A stretch of 64,000 nt of DNA from the sequence record OQ850289. The stretch is one strand, 5' to 3'. This DNA comes from Escherichia phage vB_EcoM_ULIM3. Position 1 is the first letter of the stretch. Each line of letters begins with the position of its first letter. Under the pieces are notes generated by a model, which saw only the letters and a list, made by a program, of their open reading frames with translations, was not told the origin of the DNA and did not search any database. Below, one piece after another: positions 5,279 through 64,000 of this stretch. The translations under genes and the position numbers were made by a program.

Positions 5279-6451
5279 ATGGCAGTAGGTGAAATTCAAA
5301 TTAGTGCCTTGCCTCAAGCATCCTTACCAATTGACCTTAGTGATATCTTCCATCTTAAGCAGGGTATTGAGGATAAGAGGTGTACTCTTGAGCAATTACT
5401 TGCTCCACACGCAAGCCTAAGAAATAACCCTCATGGTGTTACTAAAACACAAATTGGTTTAGATAATGTTATTAATGCTCTTCAGTTAGTCGCTGAAAAT
5501 AACTTATCAGATATTGTTAATGTAGCTGAGGCAAGAGCAAATCTACAGATTATGTCTTCAGAAGAGGTTAATAACCTTGTCCAGCAACATATCAAGGACA
5601 AGAGTAACCCACACAATACAACTAAGGCACAGGTTGGTTTAAGTAATGTTCAGAACTGGACAACATCTAATCTGTATAACGAAGATGCAGATAAGTATGC
5701 TACAGCAAGAGCAGTAAATAACTTGTACAAGGCTGTTCAGGCTTCTTATCCAGTAGGTACTATCCATCTTTCTATGAACTCTGCAAACCCTTCCACATAC
5801 TTAATTTGTGGAGGTACTTGGGAGTTAGTTTCAAAAGGCAGGGCATTGGTTGGCTATGACTCTGATACAAGACCAGCAGGTTCTGTATTTGGCGCTTCAA
5901 CTGTCACTTTGTCAGTTAATAACATACCTCAGCACTCCCACTCTGTGTCTCTTAGCGGTGGTGGTCACACTCATAATGCAACTGTGTCAATTTCAGCTTT
6001 TGATTATGGGACTAAGACTACAAACTCTTTTGACTATGGGACAAAAGCTACTAACACAACTGGTAACCATACACACAGTGTGTCAGGTAACACTAGCACC
6101 AATGGTACTCACAACCATGATGTGTATCCTAGAGAAAATGATGGCACTGGTAATGCTGTGGCTGACTCTGATGGTGGTGGTGCAAGAAGGACATCAAGGA
6201 CTTCTAGTGATGGTGCGCACTCACACAGCTTTAACGTCACATCTGGTGCATCAGGTGACCACAGCCACACGGTTGGTATTGGTGCTCACAGTCATACAGT
6301 TGGTATTGGTTCACATACGCATAGTGGCACTGTAACAGTTTCTTCTTCTGAACATACACATAGTGGCAATACAAATAGTGTTGGTGGAGGTCAGGCAGTT
6401 AATATTGAACAGCCATCCTTCGTACTGTATGTATGGCAGAGAACAGCTTAA
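5279..6451 (+). CDS. tail fibre protein with C-terminal HxH repeats
   Basis: 390 aa; C-terminal third has repeated H-x-H motifs (HTHS, HSHT, HNHD) and FDYGTK repeats; terminator follows. Confidence 0.75.
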   Translation: MAVGEIQISALPQASLPIDLSDIFHLKQGIEDKRCTLEQLLAPHASLRNNPHGVTKTQIGLDNVINALQLVAENNLSDIVNVAEARANLQIMSSEEVNNLVQQHIKDKSNPHNTTKAQVGLSNVQNWTTSNLYNEDADKYATARAVNNLYKAVQASYPVGTIHLSMNSANPSTYLICGGTWELVSKGRALVGYDSDTRPAGSVFGASTVTLSVNNIPQHSHSVSLSGGGHTHNATVSISAFDYGTKTTNSFDYGTKATNTTGNHTHSVSGNTSTNGTHNHDVYPRENDGTGNAVADSDGGGARRTSRTSSDGAHSHSFNVTSGASGDHSHTVGIGAHSHTVGIGSHTHSGTVTVSSSEHTHSGNTNSVGGGQAVNIEQPSFVLYVWQRTA

Positions 6452-16461: not shown

Positions 16462-16719
16462 TCACCCAATAACAGTAGTGTGTGATTGACCATTTTTGCC
16501 ATAGCTATAAGATGTTGTTGTTTGAGAGTTTGGACACCTGACAACAACAATGTCTCTGCTTATGGCATCACCATGTAACTTATAGACTCTGCAATCTTGC
16601 ATCTCTGGTGGGAGGCTATAAGAAGCGTTTTTGTCCTCGTAAGAGGGATTACAGCCAGATAGAAAAATTACTCCAAGTGCAACCATTGCTTTCACACAAC
16701 TCTCAACCTTATTGTTCAC
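16462..16719 (-). CDS. putative lipoprotein
   Basis: 85 aa; signal peptide ending in lipobox-like LSGC. Confidence 0.55.
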   Translation of the reverse strand: MNNKVESCVKAMVALGVIFLSGCNPSYEDKNASYSLPPEMQDCRVYKLHGDAISRDIVVVRCPNSQTTTSYSYGKNGQSHTTVIG

Positions 16720-44941: not shown

Positions 44942-46051
44942 ATGACTACTAAAACTAAAGCACAGATTGACGCAGAAATTTACAAACTGGTTAAAGAGGG
45001 CAAGCTGACTAAAACCGCTATTGCACAGAAATTTAACACCTCAACCCGTTCAGTCGGTCGTGCTGTAGAGCGTCATGAAGCAACCTTAAAAGGGAATAAG
45101 AAGGTGACTTCTACACCAGCTACGAAGACTTTGAAGCAAGTTGCTAAGACCTTTAAAAAGAAAGCTGACAAACCAGTTGAAAAGGTTGTTAAAGATGCTG
45201 TACAGAAAGCTCCGGTAAATAAACTGCATGAAGCTATGCAGAAAGATGACAAGATTGAGTACATGATTACTGGTGACTCTGTAATTATGACTTACGGTTC
45301 AGAATCTGAAATTGTTGAGTCTACTCATCCGAACTATCAAGAGATTGTAGTTCATGTTGTGAAAGGTGAGTTCAAAAAAGCCTTTGAACTGATGAACATT
45401 CGCAAGTCTATCGAAAACTTCACTCAGGGCGCTATCACAATCAAAGGTGACAAGTTATTCTACGGTGCTGTTGAGATGCGTTCTACTCTGGTTGACCGTA
45501 TTCTTCACATGATGAAGACTGGTGATAAAGGTTTTGAACGACTTGTAATGTTCTTCGAAAAACTGATGGAAAACCCATCTAAAGATTCCGTAGAACAACT
45601 TTGGGGCTTCGTATCTCACCTTGATGTTGAAATTGATGAAGAAGGCTACATCATTGGTTGGAAGAAAGTATCTACTCGTGAAGGCAAGCTGGTTGACTCC
45701 CACACCTACAGAGTACCTAATGATTTGGGTAACATTGTAGAAATGCCACGTTGGATGGTTGATAATAACCGTAACGTGACTTGCTCTCAAGGTCTTCATG
45801 TTGGTGCTTGGGATTATGTTCGTTGTTTCTCAGGCGATACAATTCTGAAGGTTCGTGTCCATCCACGAGACGTTGTATCCGTACCAACTGATTACAACGA
45901 TATGAAGATGCGCTCGTCTCGTTATGAAGTTGCAGCAATCGTTGATAATCAACGTAAAGTGCTGAAAGCATGGGATGGTAAGACTGAAGCTTTACATGTC
46001 ATCGTCGGTACTGCTGGAGAACTTATCTCCCAACGTAAACGTGAAATCTAA
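44942..46051 (+). CDS. rIIB: rIIB-like protein
   Basis: 369 aa; collinear with T4 rIIB (LFYGAVEMRSTLVDRIL, FFEKLMENPS, VHPRDVVSVPTDYNDMKMRSSRYEV). Confidence 0.85.
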   Translation: MTTKTKAQIDAEIYKLVKEGKLTKTAIAQKFNTSTRSVGRAVERHEATLKGNKKVTSTPATKTLKQVAKTFKKKADKPVEKVVKDAVQKAPVNKLHEAMQKDDKIEYMITGDSVIMTYGSESEIVESTHPNYQEIVVHVVKGEFKKAFELMNIRKSIENFTQGAITIKGDKLFYGAVEMRSTLVDRILHMMKTGDKGFERLVMFFEKLMENPSKDSVEQLWGFVSHLDVEIDEEGYIIGWKKVSTREGKLVDSHTYRVPNDLGNIVEMPRWMVDNNRNVTCSQGLHVGAWDYVRCFSGDTILKVRVHPRDVVSVPTDYNDMKMRSSRYEVAAIVDNQRKVLKAWDGKTEALHVIVGTAGELISQRKREI

Positions 46052-46066
46052 TAAGTAATTTCTTAA

Positions 46067-46092
46067 AAGGCTGCTTCGGCGGCCTTTTTTAT
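46067..46092 (+). terminator. intrinsic terminator
   Basis: AGGCTGC-TTCG-GCGGCCT followed by TTTTTT. Confidence 0.65.
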
Positions 46093-46151
46093 TTGTATTT
46101 TGTGCAGAGTGCTGTATAATTGTTGTCACGATAAACTAAACAGGAGAACCA

Positions 46152-46700
46152 ATGAAGAAATTGATTCTAGGTTTGTGCTTAATGTTTACAGCACACTTAT
46201 CTTATGCAGTTGACTGCCCAGAGCTATCAATTAGCCAAAAAGTAAACATGTTAAAAGCTTACCAGTATGGTGAGAATAACATGGGTAAAGGTTGGGGTAT
46301 CACTCTAGCTGCTATAGCCTTACAAGAGTCAGAGTTAGGTCTGAAGGTAGAGAATAAAAAGACACATGATTATGGTATTTTCCAGAATCACTTGAAGACT
46401 GTTGTAAAGCGTAACAAAATTAGCCCTAATGTGGCTAAAAAGAAACTCTTAAGAGACTTTGATTATGCTGCGAAGGAAACTCACAAAGAGCTTGAGTTTT
46501 GGACAAAGGTGCATGGTCAGCCAAAGTCAAAGAAGACTTTACAAAAAGTTTTAGCATCATATAATGCTGGGTATTCGTACAGAATCCCTAAAGCTAAGAA
46601 GTATTCTCAAGATGTCTATAACAACATGAAAGTAATTGCTCAATGTGAATTTGCAACAAACATTTCTAAGGTAAATCATGAAAAAATTAAGAAAGTCTGA
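46152..46700 (+). CDS. putative secreted lytic transglycosylase-like protein (candidate endolysin)
   Basis: 182 aa; signal peptide MKKLILGLCLMFTAHLSYA; SLT-like AIALQESE and DYGIFQ motifs. Confidence 0.45.
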   Translation: MKKLILGLCLMFTAHLSYAVDCPELSISQKVNMLKAYQYGENNMGKGWGITLAAIALQESELGLKVENKKTHDYGIFQNHLKTVVKRNKISPNVAKKKLLRDFDYAAKETHKELEFWTKVHGQPKSKKTLQKVLASYNAGYSYRIPKAKKYSQDVYNNMKVIAQCEFATNISKVNHEKIKKV

Positions 46701-47373
46701 TGAAGTACTGTGTCATGCTTATGACTTACATCCTCATGAGTTAGGTCTTGATTCCTGTGTATGGACTCCAGAACAGTGTAGGGATTTTGAAGACACTGCA
46801 AGAGAAGTTGTATGTTCACTAGAAGAGTTTCACACATCAGAGCCAATTGTGAATGTTGTAGATAAAGAGACTGGACAAACTATAGGTGTAAGTCGTGATA
46901 GCTTAGTCATAGTCAATAAAGACCTTGTAGAAAAAGGGAATCTCATCTTAGCAGATATTGATGGTGTTCTTACAAATTTTAATCACGAAGATTGTTCAAC
47001 GGAATTGACTGACGGTTCATTCTCGCAGTACACTAATCTTCTTGACTCTGTAAGAGCAAAACCAACGTATGTTTTCAATATCATTGATGCAATTGCTAAT
47101 CATGCTGCTGTTGGACTCTTGACAGCGAGAGGTGAATCTCAGAGAATACCTACTGAGATGTTTTTAAGGCATAACACAGAGCATGACTACATGCTTTTTA
47201 TGCGTGGTTTTGGGACTAACTCTATAAGTGCAGAAAGTTTGAAAGTGAGGATGATTCAGTCTTGCATTCTGCCTTACTTTAATATAGTATGTTTTATAGA
47301 AGATACAGAGAAGAATGTTCAGAAGGTAAACAGAATCCTTCCACACATTAAAACCATGTTAGTTAAACATTGA
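46678..47373 (+). CDS. hypothetical protein, possible HAD-like hydrolase
   Basis: 231 aa; LILADIDGVLTNF resembles HAD motif I (DxDG); weak. Confidence 0.35.
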   Translation: MKKLRKSDEVLCHAYDLHPHELGLDSCVWTPEQCRDFEDTAREVVCSLEEFHTSEPIVNVVDKETGQTIGVSRDSLVIVNKDLVEKGNLILADIDGVLTNFNHEDCSTELTDGSFSQYTNLLDSVRAKPTYVFNIIDAIANHAAVGLLTARGESQRIPTEMFLRHNTEHDYMLFMRGFGTNSISAESLKVRMIQSCILPYFNIVCFIEDTEKNVQKVNRILPHIKTMLVKH

Positions 47374-47849
47374 GAGAAGAACTTATGAACAATATCATTA
47401 CGGTAGCACTGGACGATACGGCAAACAAATCTGAAGTAGTTCGTAAAATGATTCAAGGTAACTTTGAAGGTAAAATTTTCCGTGCTGTTAATGTAAAAGC
47501 TGATGGTAGCATTCGTGAATATCGTGCATTGTTGAACGTTAAGAAGCACGTAAAAGGTGTTGGTTCAACGACTGCACACAAAGAAAACCTGATGACTATC
47601 TATGATATGGGTAAGGCTTCAGAGTTAGGTGCTGAAGGTATCGTTAAAGAAGGTGCTCCGTATCGCTCTTTCAATCTGGAAACTACTCTTATGCTTTCCT
47701 TTACAAGTGGTTCTAAAACAATCACTTATCTCTTTACTGATGCTGCAACGGTATCTGCTATTAAGGATAGCACTGTCAAAGCTGGCGTAGTTGCTGCTGC
47801 AAAAGCTTCTTCGATGGCTGCGAATATCCTTGCTAAAGTCCTCGGTTAA
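47370..47849 (+). CDS. hypothetical protein
   Basis: 159 aa ORF followed by terminator. Confidence 0.5.
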   Translation: MREELMNNIITVALDDTANKSEVVRKMIQGNFEGKIFRAVNVKADGSIREYRALLNVKKHVKGVGSTTAHKENLMTIYDMGKASELGAEGIVKEGAPYRSFNLETTLMLSFTSGSKTITYLFTDAATVSAIKDSTVKAGVVAAAKASSMAANILAKVLG

Positions 47850-47859
47850 GGTTAAGATA

Positions 47860-47883
47860 CAGGCTCCTTCGGGAGCCTTTTTC
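47860..47883 (+). terminator. intrinsic terminator
   Basis: AGGCTCC-TTCG-GGAGCCT followed by TTTTT. Confidence 0.7.
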
Positions 47884-47901
47884 ATTTCAGGAGATTGTTA
47901 A

Positions 47902-48249
47902 ATGACATTTAAAGAGTTCTGTCAAGCTACTTTCATAATTGTTTTCTTAGTTGGGGTAGGTGTCTGGGGAGGATACTCTTACAGAGACTATCAAGTTGCT
48001 GAAGCTGAGCTAAATAATGAGAAACTAATAAGTGTTGCCAAAGATGCTTATCAGGAAGGTTTAGTCACACTCAGCACCAATTACAAAAATGATTTGAAAG
48101 ATGTGCTTGCTAAGAATAAGCACACAAAAGAGGTACTAACATATGAAAAAACTAAGCCAGAGTTTTATAATGTTTGTGTTACTGATAACTATGTCAGGGT
48201 GTTCAACGAACAAAGTGAGCAGTACATTCAAAAACTCCCAAGTAAGTGA
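47902..48249 (+). CDS. putative i-spanin-like protein
   Basis: 115 aa; N-terminal TM (FIIVFLVGVGVWGGY) then coiled-coil-like domain; 3' end overlaps a lipoprotein ORF in another frame. Confidence 0.45.
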   Translation: MTFKEFCQATFIIVFLVGVGVWGGYSYRDYQVAEAELNNEKLISVAKDAYQEGLVTLSTNYKNDLKDVLAKNKHTKEVLTYEKTKPEFYNVCVTDNYVRVFNEQSEQYIQKLPSK

Positions 48250-48412
48250 GAGTGATAAGTACACTCAAGAAGACTCAAGATTCACTATTAAAGGTAATAC
48301 TGGTAGTGATGTGGCAGCAGCCCTTGAGTTCTATCGTGATGGGTTTTACCAGTGCACAATCAAAGCTAATAACCTTATTGATATGATTTTATTAGGAAAT
48401 AAACAGCAATGA
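48143..48412 (+). CDS. putative o-spanin-like lipoprotein
   Basis: 89 aa; signal peptide with lipobox-like ITMSGC; start embedded in 47902-48249. Confidence 0.4.
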   Translation: MKKLSQSFIMFVLLITMSGCSTNKVSSTFKNSQVSESDKYTQEDSRFTIKGNTGSDVAAALEFYRDGFYQCTIKANNLIDMILLGNKQQ

Positions 48413-48678
48413 CAGAGAATGAAGATACTTTTTACGTAGAGGGGTACTTACTGTTACCGCGACCAAAAGAAACTTATATGCGAATCGACTTCATACCAAC
48501 CATTATGGATAATGTGATGTGTCATATCTTTATGCAGGGTGTCACAGCACAGCTTAAGCATGTTGGTAAAGACTGCAAAATAAAGGTTGACACTCATCCA
48601 GAAATCAAAGAGAATCACTACACATGGTTCTTACCAGACTCTAAAGAAATCTTAGCAATTCTTAAAACGAGGAAATGA
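48409..48678 (+). CDS. hypothetical protein
   Basis: 89 aa ORF. Confidence 0.45.
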   Translation: MTENEDTFYVEGYLLLPRPKETYMRIDFIPTIMDNVMCHIFMQGVTAQLKHVGKDCKIKVDTHPEIKENHYTWFLPDSKEILAILKTRK

Positions 48679-48989
48679 TTATGCAATTCCAGCCAACAAA
48701 TCGTGGATTTTCTTATGCAGAATTTAAAGATGCTAAAGGGGAAGTTTGTACTTTACAAGAGAGTTCATCATACGAACCATGTGTCTGGTTAGGTGCTAAA
48801 GAGGTCTCTGTTCAGTACCTAGATGGTGGCTGGAAAACACTTGATATCCCAGCATTAGTAGGTAAAGATTTTGTAGGTAACCAAAGAATGAAACTCAATC
48901 AAGAACAGGTAAAAGAACTGTTGCCGTACCTTCAATACTTTGCTGAAAATGGTGAATTGCCAACAGAGGAACTTACAAATGCAGATTAA
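48675..48989 (+). CDS. hypothetical protein
   Basis: 104 aa ORF. Confidence 0.45.
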   Translation: MIMQFQPTNRGFSYAEFKDAKGEVCTLQESSSYEPCVWLGAKEVSVQYLDGGWKTLDIPALVGKDFVGNQRMKLNQEQVKELLPYLQYFAENGELPTEELTNAD

Positions 48990-49305
48990 TGGAAGAGACT
49001 TTGTAGCCGTTTACTATGAGAAAGGTAAAGAAGTTGGCGTAGCACAATTGTCTTATGGCAATGGTAAGTGGTTATATGGAACAATCGCAGTAGTCGGGAC
49101 AAGAAGTGATACAAAAACCTTTAAAGATTGTGTTGAGCTTCTTGAAGAATCCATCCAGAATCATTGGTGTCTGATATGGATGACTGACAATGAAGTGATG
49201 GAACGTTTCAAAAAGATTGATATCAACATTGATAGTATTGAGCATGTTGATTTATATGAACTGACTGAGAAGGTAAATTATGAGAGTAATTCTAGCCAGA
49301 GATAA
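48979..49305 (+). CDS. hypothetical protein
   Basis: Track ORF 48940-49305 trimmed to internal ATG (MQINGRDF) to reduce overlap. Confidence 0.4.
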   Translation: MQINGRDFVAVYYEKGKEVGVAQLSYGNGKWLYGTIAVVGTRSDTKTFKDCVELLEESIQNHWCLIWMTDNEVMERFKKIDINIDSIEHVDLYELTEKVNYESNSSQR

Positions 49306-49507
49306 AAAGACACGGAAAATTATCCGGTCAGCAGTATTCATTGGAAGAAATAAAGTGATTCCATTTACAGCAAATGATGTGATAGCCTACAGGGAAAAAT
49401 TAGCATTTAGTTATTGCTTGCGTGGCTTCATCTCACAACCATTGGAAGACTTCAAAAGTCGTTGTGGTAAAGGTATCATCATTCAAGAGGCAATTATCAA
49501 TGGCTGA
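49280..49507 (+). CDS. hypothetical protein
   Basis: 75 aa ORF. Confidence 0.4.
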   Translation: MRVILARDKKTRKIIRSAVFIGRNKVIPFTANDVIAYREKLAFSYCLRGFISQPLEDFKSRCGKGIIIQEAIING

Positions 49508-49700: not shown

Positions 49701-50486
49701 ATGGGTATTGTAAAAATCATCAAAGGTGATATCTTTGATGCCTTTGATAAAGGCAAATTTGATATCATTGGTCATGGTTGCAACTGTATGAATTTCATGG
49801 GTGCAGGTATTGCAGCAACTATTTCTAAGCGTTATCCAAAAGTGTATGATACTGACACAGAAGTTTACCTGTTTGCAGGTGGCATTCGTCACAAACCCTG
49901 TGAAAATTTACTAGGTAATTTCTCTGTAGCACGTTTAAAACAAGGCCGTATAGCTAACCTTTACACCCAACTTCATACTGGTAAAGATGCCCGATACAGT
50001 GCTTTAGAGTCATCTTTGAAACAGCTTAACAGATACTGTGAAGTTAACCAGTTGAAGAAAGTTGGTCTACCTATGATTGGTGCAGGTATCGGTGGGCTTG
50101 ACCCTCAAGCTGTCACAGTTATCATTAATCAGGTGATGAAGAGTGTAGATGTTTATCTGTATGTCTATGAAGCAAAAATGTATAATGAGTTACACTCAGG
50201 TTGGAAAAACTACTGTGAACCAGAATACTTTGCAGGTGTAGTTGTGTTCACAGATAACGAAGTTACCCTCTTCAGACGAAGAAAAGGTAAGATACATCAA
50301 AGTAACCCTCCGGTTGAAAAGATGTCTCTGAGTAACGCTCTAGTTACCCACCTGTCGAAGAGCAATCACAGGATTGCAGTAACATTTGGCAGTGATGCAG
50401 ATACTTATATCTATGCAAGAACTGATGAGGATATCGAGACAGTTTTCTCTTCACCAGAAGTTACCTTCTTAGACGCAAAGAACTAA
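49701..50486 (+). CDS. putative macro-domain protein (ADP-ribose binding/processing)
   Basis: 261 aa; N-terminal IIKGDIFDA ... IIGHGCNCMNFMGAGIAATISKRYP resembles macro domain signatures. Confidence 0.5.
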   Translation: MGIVKIIKGDIFDAFDKGKFDIIGHGCNCMNFMGAGIAATISKRYPKVYDTDTEVYLFAGGIRHKPCENLLGNFSVARLKQGRIANLYTQLHTGKDARYSALESSLKQLNRYCEVNQLKKVGLPMIGAGIGGLDPQAVTVIINQVMKSVDVYLYVYEAKMYNELHSGWKNYCEPEYFAGVVVFTDNEVTLFRRRKGKIHQSNPPVEKMSLSNALVTHLSKSNHRIAVTFGSDADTYIYARTDEDIETVFSSPEVTFLDAKN

Positions 50487-50557
50487 GAAACTCTGTAGAA
50501 TATTCACAATAGACCAAGCCTTTCTTATCTGGTAAATTTTTCAGGTAAGGAGGCTTT

Positions 50558-61054: not shown

Positions 61055-61588
61055 CTATAATTGTAGGTTGCATTCTTTACTTACCTCTTCAAGTTTAATC
61101 TCCGAGTCCTTAAGTCGTTTCTTATGAACTCTGAATCTTAGTAGTGAGACGATGATACCAGCTAAAGGAACAGCATACAAGTACCAAACATCATATACCT
61201 TTGCAGTAATCTGTGTAATAGTCAAGTCTTGAGCTATGTAGCTGATTGCTGATACGGCTAGTAATGTTGCTAAGAAGAAAACCAGTATCATAGCAATATT
61301 CAGACAACCTCTGGCATGGTATTCATGCTTAATGCACTTATTCTTTTCGTCAACAACCCTGTTGTAGTCATTTGTAAAGTCTCTGTAGAAAGCTTTCAAG
61401 TATTCTTGAGTGTAGCCTTCAAAGCAACCTGTACCGTACCAATAATCACCACCAAAGTGTGCTATGATACCGGTATCCCCATTCGGTTTGGTTACTCTCA
61501 AAGAGGTGTGATGACGAGTATCTTGATAGTCTATTTTGTATCTTTCTTCATAAATCATTTTCCAATCCCTCTCAGTCGTTTGTTCCAC
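61055..61588 (-). CDS. hypothetical membrane protein
   Basis: 177 aa; hydrophobic segments (ILVFFLATLLAVSAISYIA, VPLAGIIVSLL). Confidence 0.5.
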   Translation of the reverse strand: MEQTTERDWKMIYEERYKIDYQDTRHHTSLRVTKPNGDTGIIAHFGGDYWYGTGCFEGYTQEYLKAFYRDFTNDYNRVVDEKNKCIKHEYHARGCLNIAMILVFFLATLLAVSAISYIAQDLTITQITAKVYDVWYLYAVPLAGIIVSLLRFRVHKKRLKDSEIKLEEVSKECNLQL

Positions 61589-63913: not shown

Positions 63914-64000
63914 TTACTTTGGATATACACTGTCAAGATAAATGTTAGCTTCCATTCTACGTCTGTTTTTCAGGCCGTTTGAAGTGACCTTCTCACCTTT
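63914..64000 (-). CDS. 3' end of a minus-strand gene extending beyond the window (5' partial)
   Basis: Open reading frame from window edge to TAA at 63914-63916, then terminator. Confidence 0.3.
   Translation of the reverse strand, partial: KGEKVTSNGLKNRRRMEANIYLDSVYPK

What the first reader, a model, noticed from the sequence alone, without database searches (positions are those of the whole stretch)
46152..48412. Candidate lysis cassette with embedded overlapping spanin-like gene pair
A signal-peptide-bearing lytic transglycosylase-like protein is followed three genes later by a TM/coiled-coil ORF (47902-48249) whose 3' part contains, in another frame, a lipoprotein ORF (48143-48412; lipobox ITMSGC). 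This is the classic embedded arrangement of i-spanin and o-spanin genes. No holin was confidently identified.
Basis: inference. Interest (0 to 1): 0.4.

Follow-up and report, generated by a model that had tools for sequence, protein, structure and literature searches.

The report
Known Felix O1-type overlapped spanin genes
The two overlapping genes are the already catalogued inner- and outer-membrane spanin pair of Felix O1-like phages, which breaks the host outer membrane at the end of infection, but they are not part of a lysis cassette because this phage's endolysin and holin lie elsewhere in the genome.

Summary
The window is a Felixounavirus (Felix O1-like myophage), 99.3% identical to Escherichia phage vB_EcoM_ULIM8. 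The ORFs exist exactly as described. 47902-48249 encodes a 115-aa protein with one N-terminal transmembrane helix. 48143-48412, in the +1 frame, encodes an 89-aa lipoprotein precursor (MKKLSQSFIMFVLLITMSG|C, Ser at +2). Both frames are under purifying selection, and the lipobox is conserved in five phage lineages. This is the two-component spanin pair already listed for Felix O1, Mushroom, Moogle and UAB_Phi87 in SpaninDB (family JH2), with the same 348-nt/270-nt/107-nt geometry. Its architecture is "overlapped", not "embedded". The "lysis cassette" reading fails. The intervening genes are a polynucleotide kinase and an unknown protein, and a terminator-like hairpin separates them from the spanins. 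The canonical endolysin lies 15.5 kb away on the opposite strand and is cut by the window end. The holin sits in the tRNA cluster outside the window. The signal-peptide protein at 46152-46700 does have the GH23/SLT fold, but it is linked to rIIB and pnk, not to the spanins, and its role is unknown. The finding is ordinary and already known. One by-product is that many GenBank relatives start the o-spanin at an internal ATG, which removes its signal peptide.

The parts
47902..48249 (+). i-spanin gene (115 aa): inner-membrane anchored, type II, mostly helical periplasmic domain with an invariant C-terminal motif EK..F.N.C....Y....N (E82-N102) and one periplasmic Cys (C92)
   Evidence: ORF. PHROG 1152 Rz-like spanin, 6.9e-42. 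112/115 identical to the Felix01 i-spanin in SpaninDB. Invariant columns in alignment A2.
47917..47973 (+). codons 6-24 of the i-spanin: its single N-terminal transmembrane segment (FCQATFIIVFLVGVGVWGG)
   Evidence: Kyte-Doolittle 19-residue maximum of 1.87, with no other TM-like stretch.
48143..48412 (+). o-spanin gene (89-aa precursor, 70-aa mature outer-membrane lipoprotein), in the +1 frame relative to the i-spanin, starting at 0.69 of its length and ending 163 nt beyond its stop (overlapped architecture)
   Evidence: ORF. PHROG 4180 1e-49 and PHROG 456 Rz-like spanin 1e-4. Same coordinates are annotated as o-spanin with an RBS in Mushroom and Moogle. Third-position variation follows the o-frame, 40 of 60 sites. 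SpaninDB Felix01 entry: ovl, +1 frame, 107-nt overlap.
48143..48202 (+). lipoprotein signal peptide (codons 1-19, MKKLSQSFIMFVLLITMSG) plus the lipidated Cys20; lipobox TMSG|C, Ser at +2 (outer-membrane sorting)
   Evidence: PS51257-type match. Cys20 is invariant and the lipobox is conserved in 8 phages of 5 lineages.
48143..48249 (+). 107-nt dual-coding overlap: encodes the invariant C-terminal motif of the i-spanin in frame 0 and the signal peptide and lipobox of the o-spanin in frame +1
   Evidence: Variability 0.18 against 0.31 and 0.37 in the flanking single-coding parts; no substitution is synonymous in both frames.
47889..47893 (+). Shine-Dalgarno AGGAG of the i-spanin (8-nt spacer)
   Evidence: the same SD is recorded in SpaninDB for Felix01.
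48130..48134 (+). Shine-Dalgarno GAGGT of the o-spanin (8-nt spacer), inside the i-spanin gene. The internal ATGs at 48170 and 48191 have none.
47861..47883 (+). intrinsic-terminator-like hairpin (AGGCTCC-TTCG-GGAGCCT plus TTTTT) just upstream of the i-spanin RBS; it separates the SLT/pnk/unknown genes from the spanin unit
   Evidence: Scan. Conserved in 5 relatives, and hairpins of different sequence occupy the same position in Erwinia SunLIRen and Kuravirus EK5.
46152..46700 (+). Sec-signal-bearing GH23 (SLT / goose-lysozyme fold) protein.
   Evidence: Pfam SLT 1.2e-3, below the gathering score. Family alignment has invariant E59(S60), Q78, Y137-N138-x-G140. Profile hit to EtgA 8urn, 2.4e-4. 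AF2 pLDDT 84. Foldseek top hits are all GH23. The module rIIB-SLT-pnk is conserved without spanins in L014.
46678..47373 (+). polynucleotide kinase/phosphatase (not a lysis gene) lying between the SLT-like gene and the spanins
   Evidence: PHROG 3970, 1e-134; annotated as such in relatives.
47385..47849 (+). conserved protein of unknown function (154 aa from the ATG used in relatives); not an endolysin
   Evidence: PHROG 2267, unknown function. 60% identical to Erwinia SunLIRen gp8, with no similarity to the endolysins.
63917..64000 (-). 3' end (last 28 codons) of the canonical endolysin (Phage_lysozyme type), truncated by the end of the window, about 15.5 kb from the spanins on the opposite strand
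   Evidence: tblastn with the EcoM2 endolysin, residues 127-154: 92.9% identity, E 3.5e-13. Position agrees with EcoM2 and Mushroom annotation.

Best explanation
47902-48249 and 48143-48412 encode the two-component spanin of a Felix O1-like phage. It belongs to the 'overlapped' architectural class, SpaninDB family JH2.

Shown here:
- The first protein has one N-terminal transmembrane helix and a helical, charged periplasmic domain.
- The second, read in the +1 frame from its own ribosome-binding site, has a signal-peptidase-II lipoprotein signal with an outer-membrane sorting residue.
- Both frames are under purifying selection.
- Each protein keeps one invariant periplasmic cysteine inside a conserved C-terminal motif.

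Inferred from the lambda Rz/Rz1 and T4 PseT.3/PseT.2 paradigms:
- The i-spanin is anchored in the inner membrane and the o-spanin in the inner leaflet of the outer membrane.
- Their C-terminal regions bind, probably stabilised by Dsb-dependent disulfides, to form a bridge threaded through the peptidoglycan mesh.
- Once the holin has released the endolysin and the wall is degraded, the complexes are free to move and collapse. They fuse the inner and outer membranes and so remove the last barrier to virion release.

The pair is not part of a lysis cassette. As in T4, the holin, endolysin and spanin genes sit at three separate loci.
For: - Exact ORFs; TM helix, lipobox, +2 Ser and Shine-Dalgarno sequences.
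- PHROG 1152 'Rz-like spanin' at 6.9e-42 and PHROG 456 at 1e-4.
- 112/115 identity to the Felix01 i-spanin in SpaninDB, with identical geometry: ovl, 348 nt, 89 aa, 107-nt overlap, +1 frame.
- Felix01, Mushroom, Moogle and UAB_phi87 are listed in overlapped family JH2.
- Curated CPT records annotate the same pair with RBSs, and many other relatives annotate i-/o-spanin here.
- Codon-position-specific variation in each frame and reduced variability in the overlap.
- Lipobox Cys20, o-spanin C71 and i-spanin C92 are invariant across Felixounavirus, Mooglevirus, Suspvirus, Kolesnikvirus, a Pectobacterium ounavirus, 9NA and Kuravirus at 22-35% identity.
- Homologous pairs lie in a holin-endolysin-spanin cassette in 9NA, and directly downstream of the endolysin homolog in Wc4-1.
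- Lipoprotein signals are rare in the window: 3 loci among 1,296 candidates.
- Scattered lysis genes are documented for the group (PMC4319497; PMC4392139; PMC3185647) and seen in EcoM2 and Mushroom annotations.
Against: - In the papers searched here I found no member of the JH2 family tested experimentally. Function rests on signals, homology and gene context.
- The mature o-spanin has no proline (0 of 70), whereas lambda Rz1 has 10 of 40.
- No long coiled coil is predicted for the i-spanin: Pepcoil 0 and only about 21 heptad-like residues. The detailed mechanics may therefore differ from lambda.
- The single-sequence AF2 model of the i-spanin has low confidence, pLDDT 45.
- There are no Pfam or NCBIfam spanin hits and no BLASTP similarity to T4 PseT.3/PseT.2.
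- The genes lie among early/middle-type genes (rII, pnk, macro-domain), just after a terminator-like hairpin, so timing and level of expression are unknown.
Confidence: 0.88

Rival explanations
1. The whole interval 46152-48412 is a contiguous lysis cassette in which the signal-peptide GH23/SLT-like protein is the phage's (Sec-exported) endolysin and works together with the downstream spanins.
For: - The protein has the GH23 fold and the catalytic E-S, G-x-x-Q and Y-N-x-G motifs and a cleavable signal peptide.
- Some relatives label it 'putative lysin' or 'Lysin' (UniRef names).
- It lies 1.2 kb upstream of the spanins.
Against: - A separate, canonical Phage_lysozyme endolysin exists (gp35 in PMC3185647).
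- The two intervening genes are a polynucleotide kinase and an unknown non-membrane protein.
- A terminator-like hairpin separates them from the spanins.
- In the divergent relative L014 the rIIB-SLT-pnk module is kept with no spanin pair after it. The spanin pair meanwhile associates with the lysozyme-type endolysin in Wc4-1 and with a different endolysin in 9NA.
- There is no holin nearby: no TM protein among the neighbours.
- The literature says the lysis genes are scattered.
Confidence: 0.05
2. The TM protein and lipoprotein form an envelope complex with a non-lytic role, such as superinfection exclusion or receptor masking. Phage lipoproteins such as T5 Llp or Cor do this. Expression with early/middle genes would fit.
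For: - The location is among early/middle-type genes (rIIA/rIIB, pnk, macro-domain protein) and far from the endolysin and holin.
- The o-spanin is proline-free and apparently structured, unlike Rz1.
- No experimental lysis data were found for this family.
Against: - Homologs of both genes, in the same overlapped arrangement, sit as the last genes of a holin-endolysin cassette in 9NA and directly after the endolysin in Wc4-1.
- The experimentally proven T4 spanins are also outside any cassette and next to pnk.
- No other spanin candidate was seen in the 64-kb window or annotated in whole-genome annotations of relatives, yet these phages lyse Gram-negative hosts.
Confidence: 0.05
3. The +1-frame ORF is a chance open frame, and only the 115-aa TM protein is real.
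For: - Several relatives do not annotate it at all (ULIM8, SUSP2, Wc4-1, 9NA).
- Alternative-frame ORFs occur by chance.
Against: - Third-codon-position variation follows the o-frame, 40 of 60 sites.
- The frame, its start, the lipobox Cys and a C-terminal motif are conserved down to 29-35% identity in unrelated phages.
- It has its own Shine-Dalgarno sequence.
- 163 nt of it overlap no other gene.
- Stop-free +1-frame runs of at least 89 codons are 0.4% of runs.
Confidence: 0.01

Closest known systems
Felix O1 p014 / unannotated o-spanin (SpaninDB family JH2, overlapped two-component spanins: Felix01, FO1a, WV8, UAB_Phi87, Mushroom, Moogle, EC6, FSL SP-010/012/107, JH2; the i-spanin family also includes Kuravirus phiEco32, NJ01, ECBP2, KBNP1711)
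   Same: - Same genes: the i-spanin is 112/115 identical.
- Same lengths (115 aa and 89 aa), same 107-nt overlap, same +1 frame, same AGGAG Shine-Dalgarno.
- Same neighbours (rIIB, SLT-like, pnk, unknown).
   Different: Only a few substitutions. This is simply another isolate of the same genus; the closest is vB_EcoM_ULIM8 at 99.3%.
Phage lambda Rz/Rz1 (prototype two-component spanin)
   Same: - A type II inner-membrane protein plus an outer-membrane lipoprotein encoded in the +1 frame of the same DNA.
- Periplasmic cysteines are present.
- Presumed same role: outer-membrane disruption by inner/outer membrane fusion after peptidoglycan degradation.
   Different: - Lambda Rz1 is fully embedded in Rz; here the o-spanin gene extends 163 nt beyond the i-spanin stop (overlapped class).
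- Rz1 is short (40 aa mature) and proline-rich (10 Pro). Here the mature protein is 70 aa with 0 Pro and has a conserved C-terminal motif.
- Rz (153 aa) has two coiled-coil helices; here the protein is 115 aa with no Pepcoil coiled coil.
- No sequence similarity and no Pfam Rz/Rz1 hit.
- The lambda genes are the last genes of the S-R-Rz/Rz1 cassette; here there is no cassette.
Phage T4 PseT.3/PseT.2 (experimentally validated spanins)
   Same: - Similar sizes: 117-aa i-spanin and an o-spanin without a proline-rich region.
- Located away from holin t and endolysin e, among early/middle genes and next to the polynucleotide kinase gene.
- The lysis system is otherwise T4-like: soluble lysozyme, class III holin, rIIA/rIIB (PMC4392139).
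   Different: - T4 genes are 'separated', touching by only 4 nt, not overlapped.
- Gene order relative to pnk is reversed: T4 has spanins, then pseT.1, then pseT; here it is pnk, unknown, then spanins.
- T4 has 0 Cys in the i-spanin and 2 in the o-spanin; here each has one.
- No significant BLASTP similarity.
Phage P2 LysB/LysC (prototype of the overlapped class)
   Same: Same architectural class: the o-spanin starts inside the i-spanin gene in the +1 frame and ends beyond it (PMC6139136).
   Different: - Different sequence families according to SpaninDB grouping.
- The P2 genes are part of a contiguous lysis cassette.
EtgA / specialised small lytic transglycosylases (GH23) and g-type lysozymes; relevant only to the 46152-46700 protein
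   Same: A small (about 160-aa mature) Sec-exported GH23 domain with the E-S, G-x-x-Q and Y-N-x-G motifs. The best solved-structure matches are 8urn (EtgA), 3gxk, 1sly and 4hjv.
   Different: - Phage-encoded and linked to rIIB and pnk.
- No secretion-system partner.
- Below the Pfam SLT gathering score.
- Activity and role untested.

Membership tests
Two-component spanin (i-spanin + o-spanin) | i-spanin: a single N-terminal transmembrane domain with the bulk of the protein periplasmic (type II) | tested here: met
   One hydrophobic stretch, residues 6-24, KD 1.87, and none elsewhere. The remaining 89 residues are 30% charged. Topology itself is not measured.
Two-component spanin (i-spanin + o-spanin) | o-spanin: SPase II lipoprotein signal with lipobox Cys and a non-Asp +2 residue (outer-membrane sorting) | tested here: met
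   MKKLSQSFIMFVLLITMSG|CS matches the PS51257-type pattern. Cys20 is invariant, and +2 is S or T in 8 phages. LipoP and SignalP were not available.
Two-component spanin (i-spanin + o-spanin) | The two genes are adjacent or overlapping, with the i-spanin first | tested here: met
   The o-spanin starts at nt 242 of the 348-nt i-spanin gene, in the +1 frame.
Two-component spanin (i-spanin + o-spanin) | At least one periplasmic cysteine available for intermolecular disulfide bonds (507 of 528 systems have one) | tested here: met
   i-spanin C92 and o-spanin C71 are invariant in alignments A2 and A3. The rule is from PMC6139136. Bond formation was not tested.
Two-component spanin (i-spanin + o-spanin) | Required for outer-membrane disruption; complements lambda Rz/Rz1 defects | not testable with these tools
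   Needs a lysis assay. No experimental report for family JH2 was found in the papers read.
SpaninDB family JH2 (Felix O1-type), overlapped class | Sequence membership (BLASTCLUST family containing Felix01, Mushroom, Moogle, UAB_phi87) | tested here: met
   112/115 identical to the Felix01 i-spanin. 93-97% identical to the Mushroom pair. PHROG 1152 at 7e-42.
SpaninDB family JH2 (Felix O1-type), overlapped class | [quoted passage not shown] | tested here: met
   The o-spanin stop is at 48412 and the i-spanin stop at 48249. The overlap is 107 nt, identical to the Felix01 entry.
Embedded spanin architecture (lambda Rz/Rz1 type) | The o-spanin gene lies entirely within the i-spanin reading frame | tested here: not met
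   163 nt of the o-spanin gene lie downstream of the i-spanin stop.
Embedded spanin architecture (lambda Rz/Rz1 type) | Sequence relationship to Rz/Rz1; proline-rich unstructured o-spanin | tested here: not met
   No Pfam Rz or Rz1 family hit. The mature o-spanin has 0 Pro in 70 residues.
Lysis cassette (contiguous holin-endolysin-spanin module) | Holin, endolysin and spanin genes are contiguous and co-transcribed | tested here: not met
   - The endolysin is at 63917-64000 (-) and beyond.
- The holin has no match in the window and lies in the tRNA cluster in relatives.
- The intervening genes are pnk and an unknown protein.
- A terminator-like hairpin precedes the spanins.
- No TM protein is present among the neighbours.
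- The literature agrees.
GH23 / family-1 lytic transglycosylase (SLT domain), for ORF 46152-46700 | Catalytic Glu-Ser motif plus the G-x-x-Q and (A/S)-Y-N-x-G motifs | tested here: met
   E59 and S60, G75 to Q78, and S136-Y137-N138-A-G140 are invariant or nearly invariant in the 14-sequence family alignment A1.
GH23 / family-1 lytic transglycosylase (SLT domain), for ORF 46152-46700 | Pfam PF01464 match above the gathering score | tested here: not met
   18.9 bits against a cut-off of 21.3 for the window protein. Homologs at 31-39% identity do carry PF01464.
GH23 / family-1 lytic transglycosylase (SLT domain), for ORF 46152-46700 | Goose-lysozyme/SLT fold | tested here: met
   The AF2 model has pLDDT 84.4. 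The top 40 Foldseek PDB hits are nearly all GH23 proteins (3gxk, 153l, 1sly, 4hjv, 6cfc), probability up to 1.00, although E-values are weak at 4e-3 or higher. The profile hit to EtgA 8urn is 2.4e-4.
GH23 / family-1 lytic transglycosylase (SLT domain), for ORF 46152-46700 | Muralytic activity; role as the phage endolysin | not testable with these tools
Gene context argues against an endolysin role.
T4 RegB-like endoribonuclease (label given to this ORF's ortholog in the Mushroom record) | Sequence or fold similarity to RegB | tested here: not met
   No RegB family appears in the Pfam, PHROG or NCBIfam hits. The fold and motifs are GH23, and the protein has a secretion signal.

The most novel reading that the evidence does not exclude
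Felix O1-like phages would carry a second muralytic enzyme besides their canonical cytoplasmic endolysin. This is the Sec-exported GH23 protein at 46152-46700, expressed with the rII/pnk gene block and reaching the periplasm without a holin. It could pre-condition or locally open the peptidoglycan, for example to help the short (115 aa plus 70 aa) spanin complex assemble or act, or to tune lysis timing. A related possibility: the single invariant Cys in each spanin subunit (i-spanin C92, o-spanin C71) forms a heterotypic i-o disulfide. Only homotypic spanin disulfides have been demonstrated so far.
Probability: 0.12. Interest if true: 0.4.

Novelty: already known. Interest (0 to 1): 0.1.

Why it matters
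It matters little beyond correct annotation. The pair is the catalogued Felix O1-type spanin, and the scattered layout of lysis genes in this genus has been published since 2010-2015.

Practical value:
- The best-matching genome (ULIM8) and several others leave these genes as 'hypothetical' or omit the o-spanin altogether.
- Many others start the o-spanin at an internal ATG, which deletes its signal peptide. This is the type of error quantified by Kongari et al. 2018.
- Felixounaviruses are widely used for Salmonella and E. coli biocontrol, so a correct lysis-gene inventory is useful.
- The JH2 spanin family (proline-free structured o-spanin, short i-spanin with no predicted coiled coil) is untested experimentally. 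It would be a reasonable comparison system for spanin mechanics.

Tried and rejected
- **Pfam and NCBIfam scans of both spanins:** only sub-threshold noise (SH3b_T, NAGLU_N, generic lipoprotein N-termini). No curated spanin model covers this family.
- **phmmer of the SLT-like protein against PDB:** no hit. A family profile was needed to get one.
- **Single-sequence AlphaFold of the i-spanin:** pLDDT 45, all-helical. Too weak to support or reject a coiled coil. Alignments built from fetched loci cannot be submitted to the predictor, and no multimer prediction is available, so the i/o complex could not be modelled.
- **Holin search among neighbours:** none of the ORFs between 46152 and 50486 other than the i-spanin and the SLT signal peptide has a TM-like segment. 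The holin of relatives has no tblastn match anywhere in the window.
- **Idea that the 154/159-aa ORF directly upstream of the i-spanin is the endolysin** (because Wc4-1 has an endolysin in that position): rejected. It has no similarity to endolysins and is 60% identical to SunLIRen gp8 of unknown function.
- **'RegB-like endoribonuclease' label for 46152-46700:** rejected.
- **Homology to T4 PseT.3/PseT.2:** none by BLASTP.
- **First fetch of the T4 region** used wrong coordinates and was repeated.


Full report
**Identity of the window.** Megablast of 45900-49400 against GenBank phages finds 257 records, 225 of them covering at least 80% of the query. Nearly all are Felixounavirus or other Ounavirinae. 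The best is Escherichia phage vB_EcoM_ULIM8 at 99.3% identity. The window is therefore a Felix O1-like myophage genome segment of about 38% G+C.

**Observation.**
- 46152-46700 (182 aa) begins MKKLILGLCLMFTAHLSYA|VD.
- 47902-48249 (115 aa) has one hydrophobic stretch, residues 6-24, with mean Kyte-Doolittle 1.87.
- 48143-48412 (89 aa) begins MKKLSQSFIMFVLLITMSG|CS. It matches the PROSITE PS51257-type lipoprotein pattern, with two basic residues in the n-region and Ser at +2.
- The second gene is in the +1 frame of the first, starts at 0.69 of its length, shares 107 nt with it and continues 163 nt past its stop.
- Both starts have good ribosome-binding sites: AGGAG at 47889-47893 and GAGGT at 48130-48134, each 8 nt upstream. 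The internal ATGs at 48170 and 48191 have none.

**Is it more than chance?**
- In six frames of the 64-kb window, only three loci among 1,296 start/ORF combinations of at least 40 aa carry such a lipoprotein signal. Stop-free +1-frame runs of at least 89 codons make up 0.4% of runs inside long ORFs.
- The comparative evidence is more decisive. It uses seven Ounavirinae genomes: the window, momo, Pr103Blw, EcoM2, Mushroom, Moogle and SUSP2.
  - In the i-only segment, 46 of 74 variable sites fall on the third codon position of the i-frame.
  - In the o-only segment, 40 of 60 fall on the third position of the o-frame.
  - The dual-coding 107 nt are about half as variable (0.18 against 0.31 and 0.37).
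  - No substitution in the overlap is synonymous in both frames.
- Both frames are therefore translated and under selection.

**What it is.**
- The 115-aa protein matches PHROG 1152 'Rz-like spanin' at 6.9e-42. The 89-aa protein matches PHROG 4180 (unnamed) at 1e-49 and, weakly, PHROG 456 'Rz-like spanin'.
- Many relatives annotate i-spanin and o-spanin here.
- The two records curated by the Center for Phage Technology, Mushroom and Moogle, annotate exactly a 348-nt i-spanin and a 270-nt o-spanin with ribosome-binding sites.
- The spanin census of Kongari et al. 2018 (PMC6139136) lists Felix01, FO1a, WV8, UAB_phi87, Mushroom, Moogle and others as family 'JH2' in the overlapped class.
- Its supplementary tables give for Felix O1: 'ovl', i-spanin 5330-5678 (348 nt), o-spanin 5571-5841 (89 aa, 70 aa mature), 107-nt overlap, frame +1, SD AGGAG. 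This is identical to the window. The window's i-spanin differs from the Felix O1 protein at 3 of 115 positions.

**Conservation in distant phages.** tblastn with the full 89-aa and 115-aa sequences finds 371 and 406 phage records. Below 40% identity they include Erwinia and Pectobacterium ounaviruses, Salmonella phage 9NA and relatives, and Kuravirus podophages. I extracted the pair from eight of these loci.
- In every case the second frame opens with M-[KR]-[KRN], a hydrophobic core, and [LIMT]-[SA]-[GAS]-C followed by S or T.
- Alignments show invariant Cys20 (the lipidation site), G54, D66, C71, N76 and L78 in the o-spanin.
- In the i-spanin the invariant residues are E82, K83, F88, N90, C92, Y97 and N102.
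- The invariant i-spanin motif is encoded by about 48145-48207. This is almost the same DNA that encodes the o-spanin signal peptide and lipobox (48143-48202).
- Each subunit thus keeps one periplasmic cysteine. This fits the rule that two-component spanins need intermolecular disulfides (PMC6139136).

**Context supports a lysis role for the family.**
- In 9NA the homologous pair follows holin, endolysin and a small membrane protein.
- In Pectobacterium phage Wc4-1 it directly follows an endolysin that is 44% identical to the Felixounavirus endolysin.
- The mechanism is inferred from the lambda and T4 paradigms and is not shown for this family. The i-spanin anchors in the inner membrane and the o-spanin in the outer membrane. 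Their C-terminal regions associate across the periplasm. After the endolysin removes the peptidoglycan, the complexes collapse and fuse the two membranes.

**Corrections to the description.**
- 'Embedded' is the lambda arrangement, in which Rz1 lies wholly inside Rz. [quoted passage not shown]
- 'Coiled-coil' is weakly founded.
  - SpaninDB reports the periplasmic domain as 66% helix but with no Pepcoil coiled-coil segment for Felix O1.
  - My crude heptad scan finds only residues 29-52.
  - A single-sequence AlphaFold model is all-helical, but its pLDDT of 45 is uninformative.
- The mature o-spanin has no proline, unlike Rz1.
- There is no Pfam or NCBIfam spanin hit and no BLASTP similarity to T4 PseT.3/PseT.2.
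- The pair therefore works like Rz/Rz1 but is not a member of that sequence family.

**The 'lysis cassette' is not supported.**
- Between the SLT-like ORF and the spanins lie a polynucleotide kinase (PHROG 3970, 1e-134) and a conserved protein of unknown function (PHROG 2267). The latter is 60% identical to Erwinia phage SunLIRen gp8 and unrelated to endolysins.
- A terminator-like hairpin with a T-run (47861-47883) sits between that gene and the i-spanin RBS. Similar signals at 46065-46088 and 50520-50553 bracket the neighbouring units.
- None of the small ORFs downstream, up to the macro-domain protein at 49701-50486, has a TM segment, so there is no holin candidate nearby.
- The canonical endolysin (154 aa, lysozyme type) is at the far end. 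Window 63917-64000 (-) encodes its last 28 residues at 92.9% identity to EcoM2 and is cut by the window boundary.
- In EcoM2 and Mushroom the holin is a 185-aa protein inside the tRNA cluster. It has no match in the window.
- In Mushroom the three loci lie at 61.9, 70.1 and 84.2 kb.
- The literature says the same:
  - 'holin-lysin cassettes ... were absent' in Felix O1 (PMC3185647).
  - 'a T4-like lysis system' (Mushroom, PMC4392139).

**The SLT-like ORF.** The description 'signal-peptide-bearing lytic transglycosylase-like protein' holds.
- Pfam SLT is just below threshold (18.9 against 21.3 bits), but homologs at 31-39% identity carry PF01464.
- A 14-sequence alignment has invariant E59 (followed by S60), Q78, Y137-N138-x-G140 and Y151. 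These are the family-1 lytic transglycosylase motifs.
- The family profile hits EtgA (8urn) at 2.4e-4, and then goose-type lysozymes.
- The AlphaFold model (pLDDT 84.4) retrieves only GH23 structures at the top of a Foldseek PDB search.
- The 'RegB-like endoribonuclease' label in the Mushroom record is therefore unsupported.
- Nothing links the gene to the spanins. In a divergent metagenomic relative (L014) the order rIIA-like, rIIB, SLT, pnk, and later the unknown protein and the macro domain is kept, but no TM/lipoprotein pair follows. In contrast, the spanin pair travels with endolysins in other phages.
- Its function remains unknown. A holin-independent accessory muralytic role is the most novel reading I cannot exclude, and I rate it unlikely.

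**Comparison with the known, and verdict.** The pair is a member of an already catalogued spanin family in an already described genomic layout.
- The closest functional analogues are T4 PseT.3/PseT.2. They share similar sizes, a non-cassette location, proximity to pnk and a T4-like holin and endolysin.
- P2 LysB/LysC share the overlapped architecture.
- No member of family JH2 appears to have been tested experimentally in the papers I could search, so function is inferred with high but not complete confidence (0.88).
- Novelty: already known. Interest: low (0.1).

**Useful by-products.**
- The o-spanin start is mis-set in many GenBank relatives. They use the equivalent of 48191, giving 73 aa starting 'MSGC...' with no signal peptide.
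- Terminator-like hairpins recur immediately upstream of the spanin pair in several lineages.

Noticed in passing
window 47861-47883 (+); L008 about 2245-2270; L011 about 2230-2255: A GC-rich hairpin plus T-run sits a few nucleotides upstream of the i-spanin ribosome-binding site. It is conserved in momo, Pr103Blw, EcoM2, Mushroom and Moogle. Hairpins of different sequence occupy the same position before the homologous spanin pair in Erwinia phage SunLIRen and Kuravirus EK5. This suggests spanin expression depends on terminator read-through or on a processed or stabilised 5' end.
   Followed up: partly
window 48143 versus 48191: Many GenBank relatives (momo, Pr103Blw, EcoM2, and EK5 in Kuravirus) annotate the o-spanin from an internal ATG. 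This gives a 73-aa product starting MSGC, which lacks the signal peptide and has no Shine-Dalgarno sequence. Others (ULIM8, SUSP2, Wc4-1, 9NA) do not annotate it at all. Only the start at 48143 gives a lipoprotein signal and a GAGGT ribosome-binding site.
   Followed up: yes
window 46152-46700 (+): This is a Sec-signal GH23/SLT-fold protein with conserved Cys22 and Cys165. Relatives label it variously 'hypothetical', 'putative lysin' and 'RegB-like endoribonuclease'; the last label is contradicted by motifs and fold. The gene order rIIB, SLT, pnk is conserved even in a relative whose SLT protein is only 37% identical (L014). Its ortholog should be about ORF 11 in Felix O1 (the i-spanin is p014), and no ORF in that range is among the virion proteins listed in the Felix O1 proteome. 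Its role is unknown.
   Followed up: partly
window 63917-64000 (-): The canonical lysozyme-type endolysin gene is cut by the end of the window, so only its last 28 codons are present. The genes downstream of it on the minus strand (59-63.9 kb) are all of unknown function.
   Followed up: yes
window 16462-16719 (-): This is a second small ORF (85 aa, or 77 aa from an internal GTG) with a lipoprotein-type signal (…MVALGVIFLSG|CNP). It matches PHROG 902 (unknown function, 1e-16) and lies between the DNA ligase and DNA polymerase genes. It could be an exclusion-type lipoprotein. The equivalent interval is not annotated in EcoM2.
   Followed up: partly
window 61055-61588 (-): This 177-aa protein (PHROG 4343, unknown function) has two strongly hydrophobic segments in its C-terminal half. 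It lies about 2.3 kb downstream of the endolysin on the same strand. It is a membrane protein of unknown role near the endolysin.
   Followed up: no
window 49701-50486 (+); L011 2761-3201: A macro-domain ('phosphatase', Appr-1-p processing) protein lies 1.3 kb downstream of the spanin pair here. In Kuravirus EK5 one lies immediately after the homologous spanin pair, and a macro-domain gene also follows the rIIB-SLT-pnk block in L014. The recurrent linkage is unexplained.
   Followed up: no
window 46678-47373 and 47902-48412; L018 4003-5782: A polynucleotide kinase gene and the spanin genes are close neighbours both here (pnk, unknown, i-spanin, o-spanin) and in T4 (pseT.3, pseT.2, pseT.1, pseT). 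The spanins share no detectable sequence similarity, and the order is reversed.
   Followed up: partly
window 47370-47849 (+): The longest ORF starts at TTG 47370 and overlaps the pnk stop. Relatives use the ATG equivalent to 47385 (154 aa), which is the more likely start.
   Followed up: no
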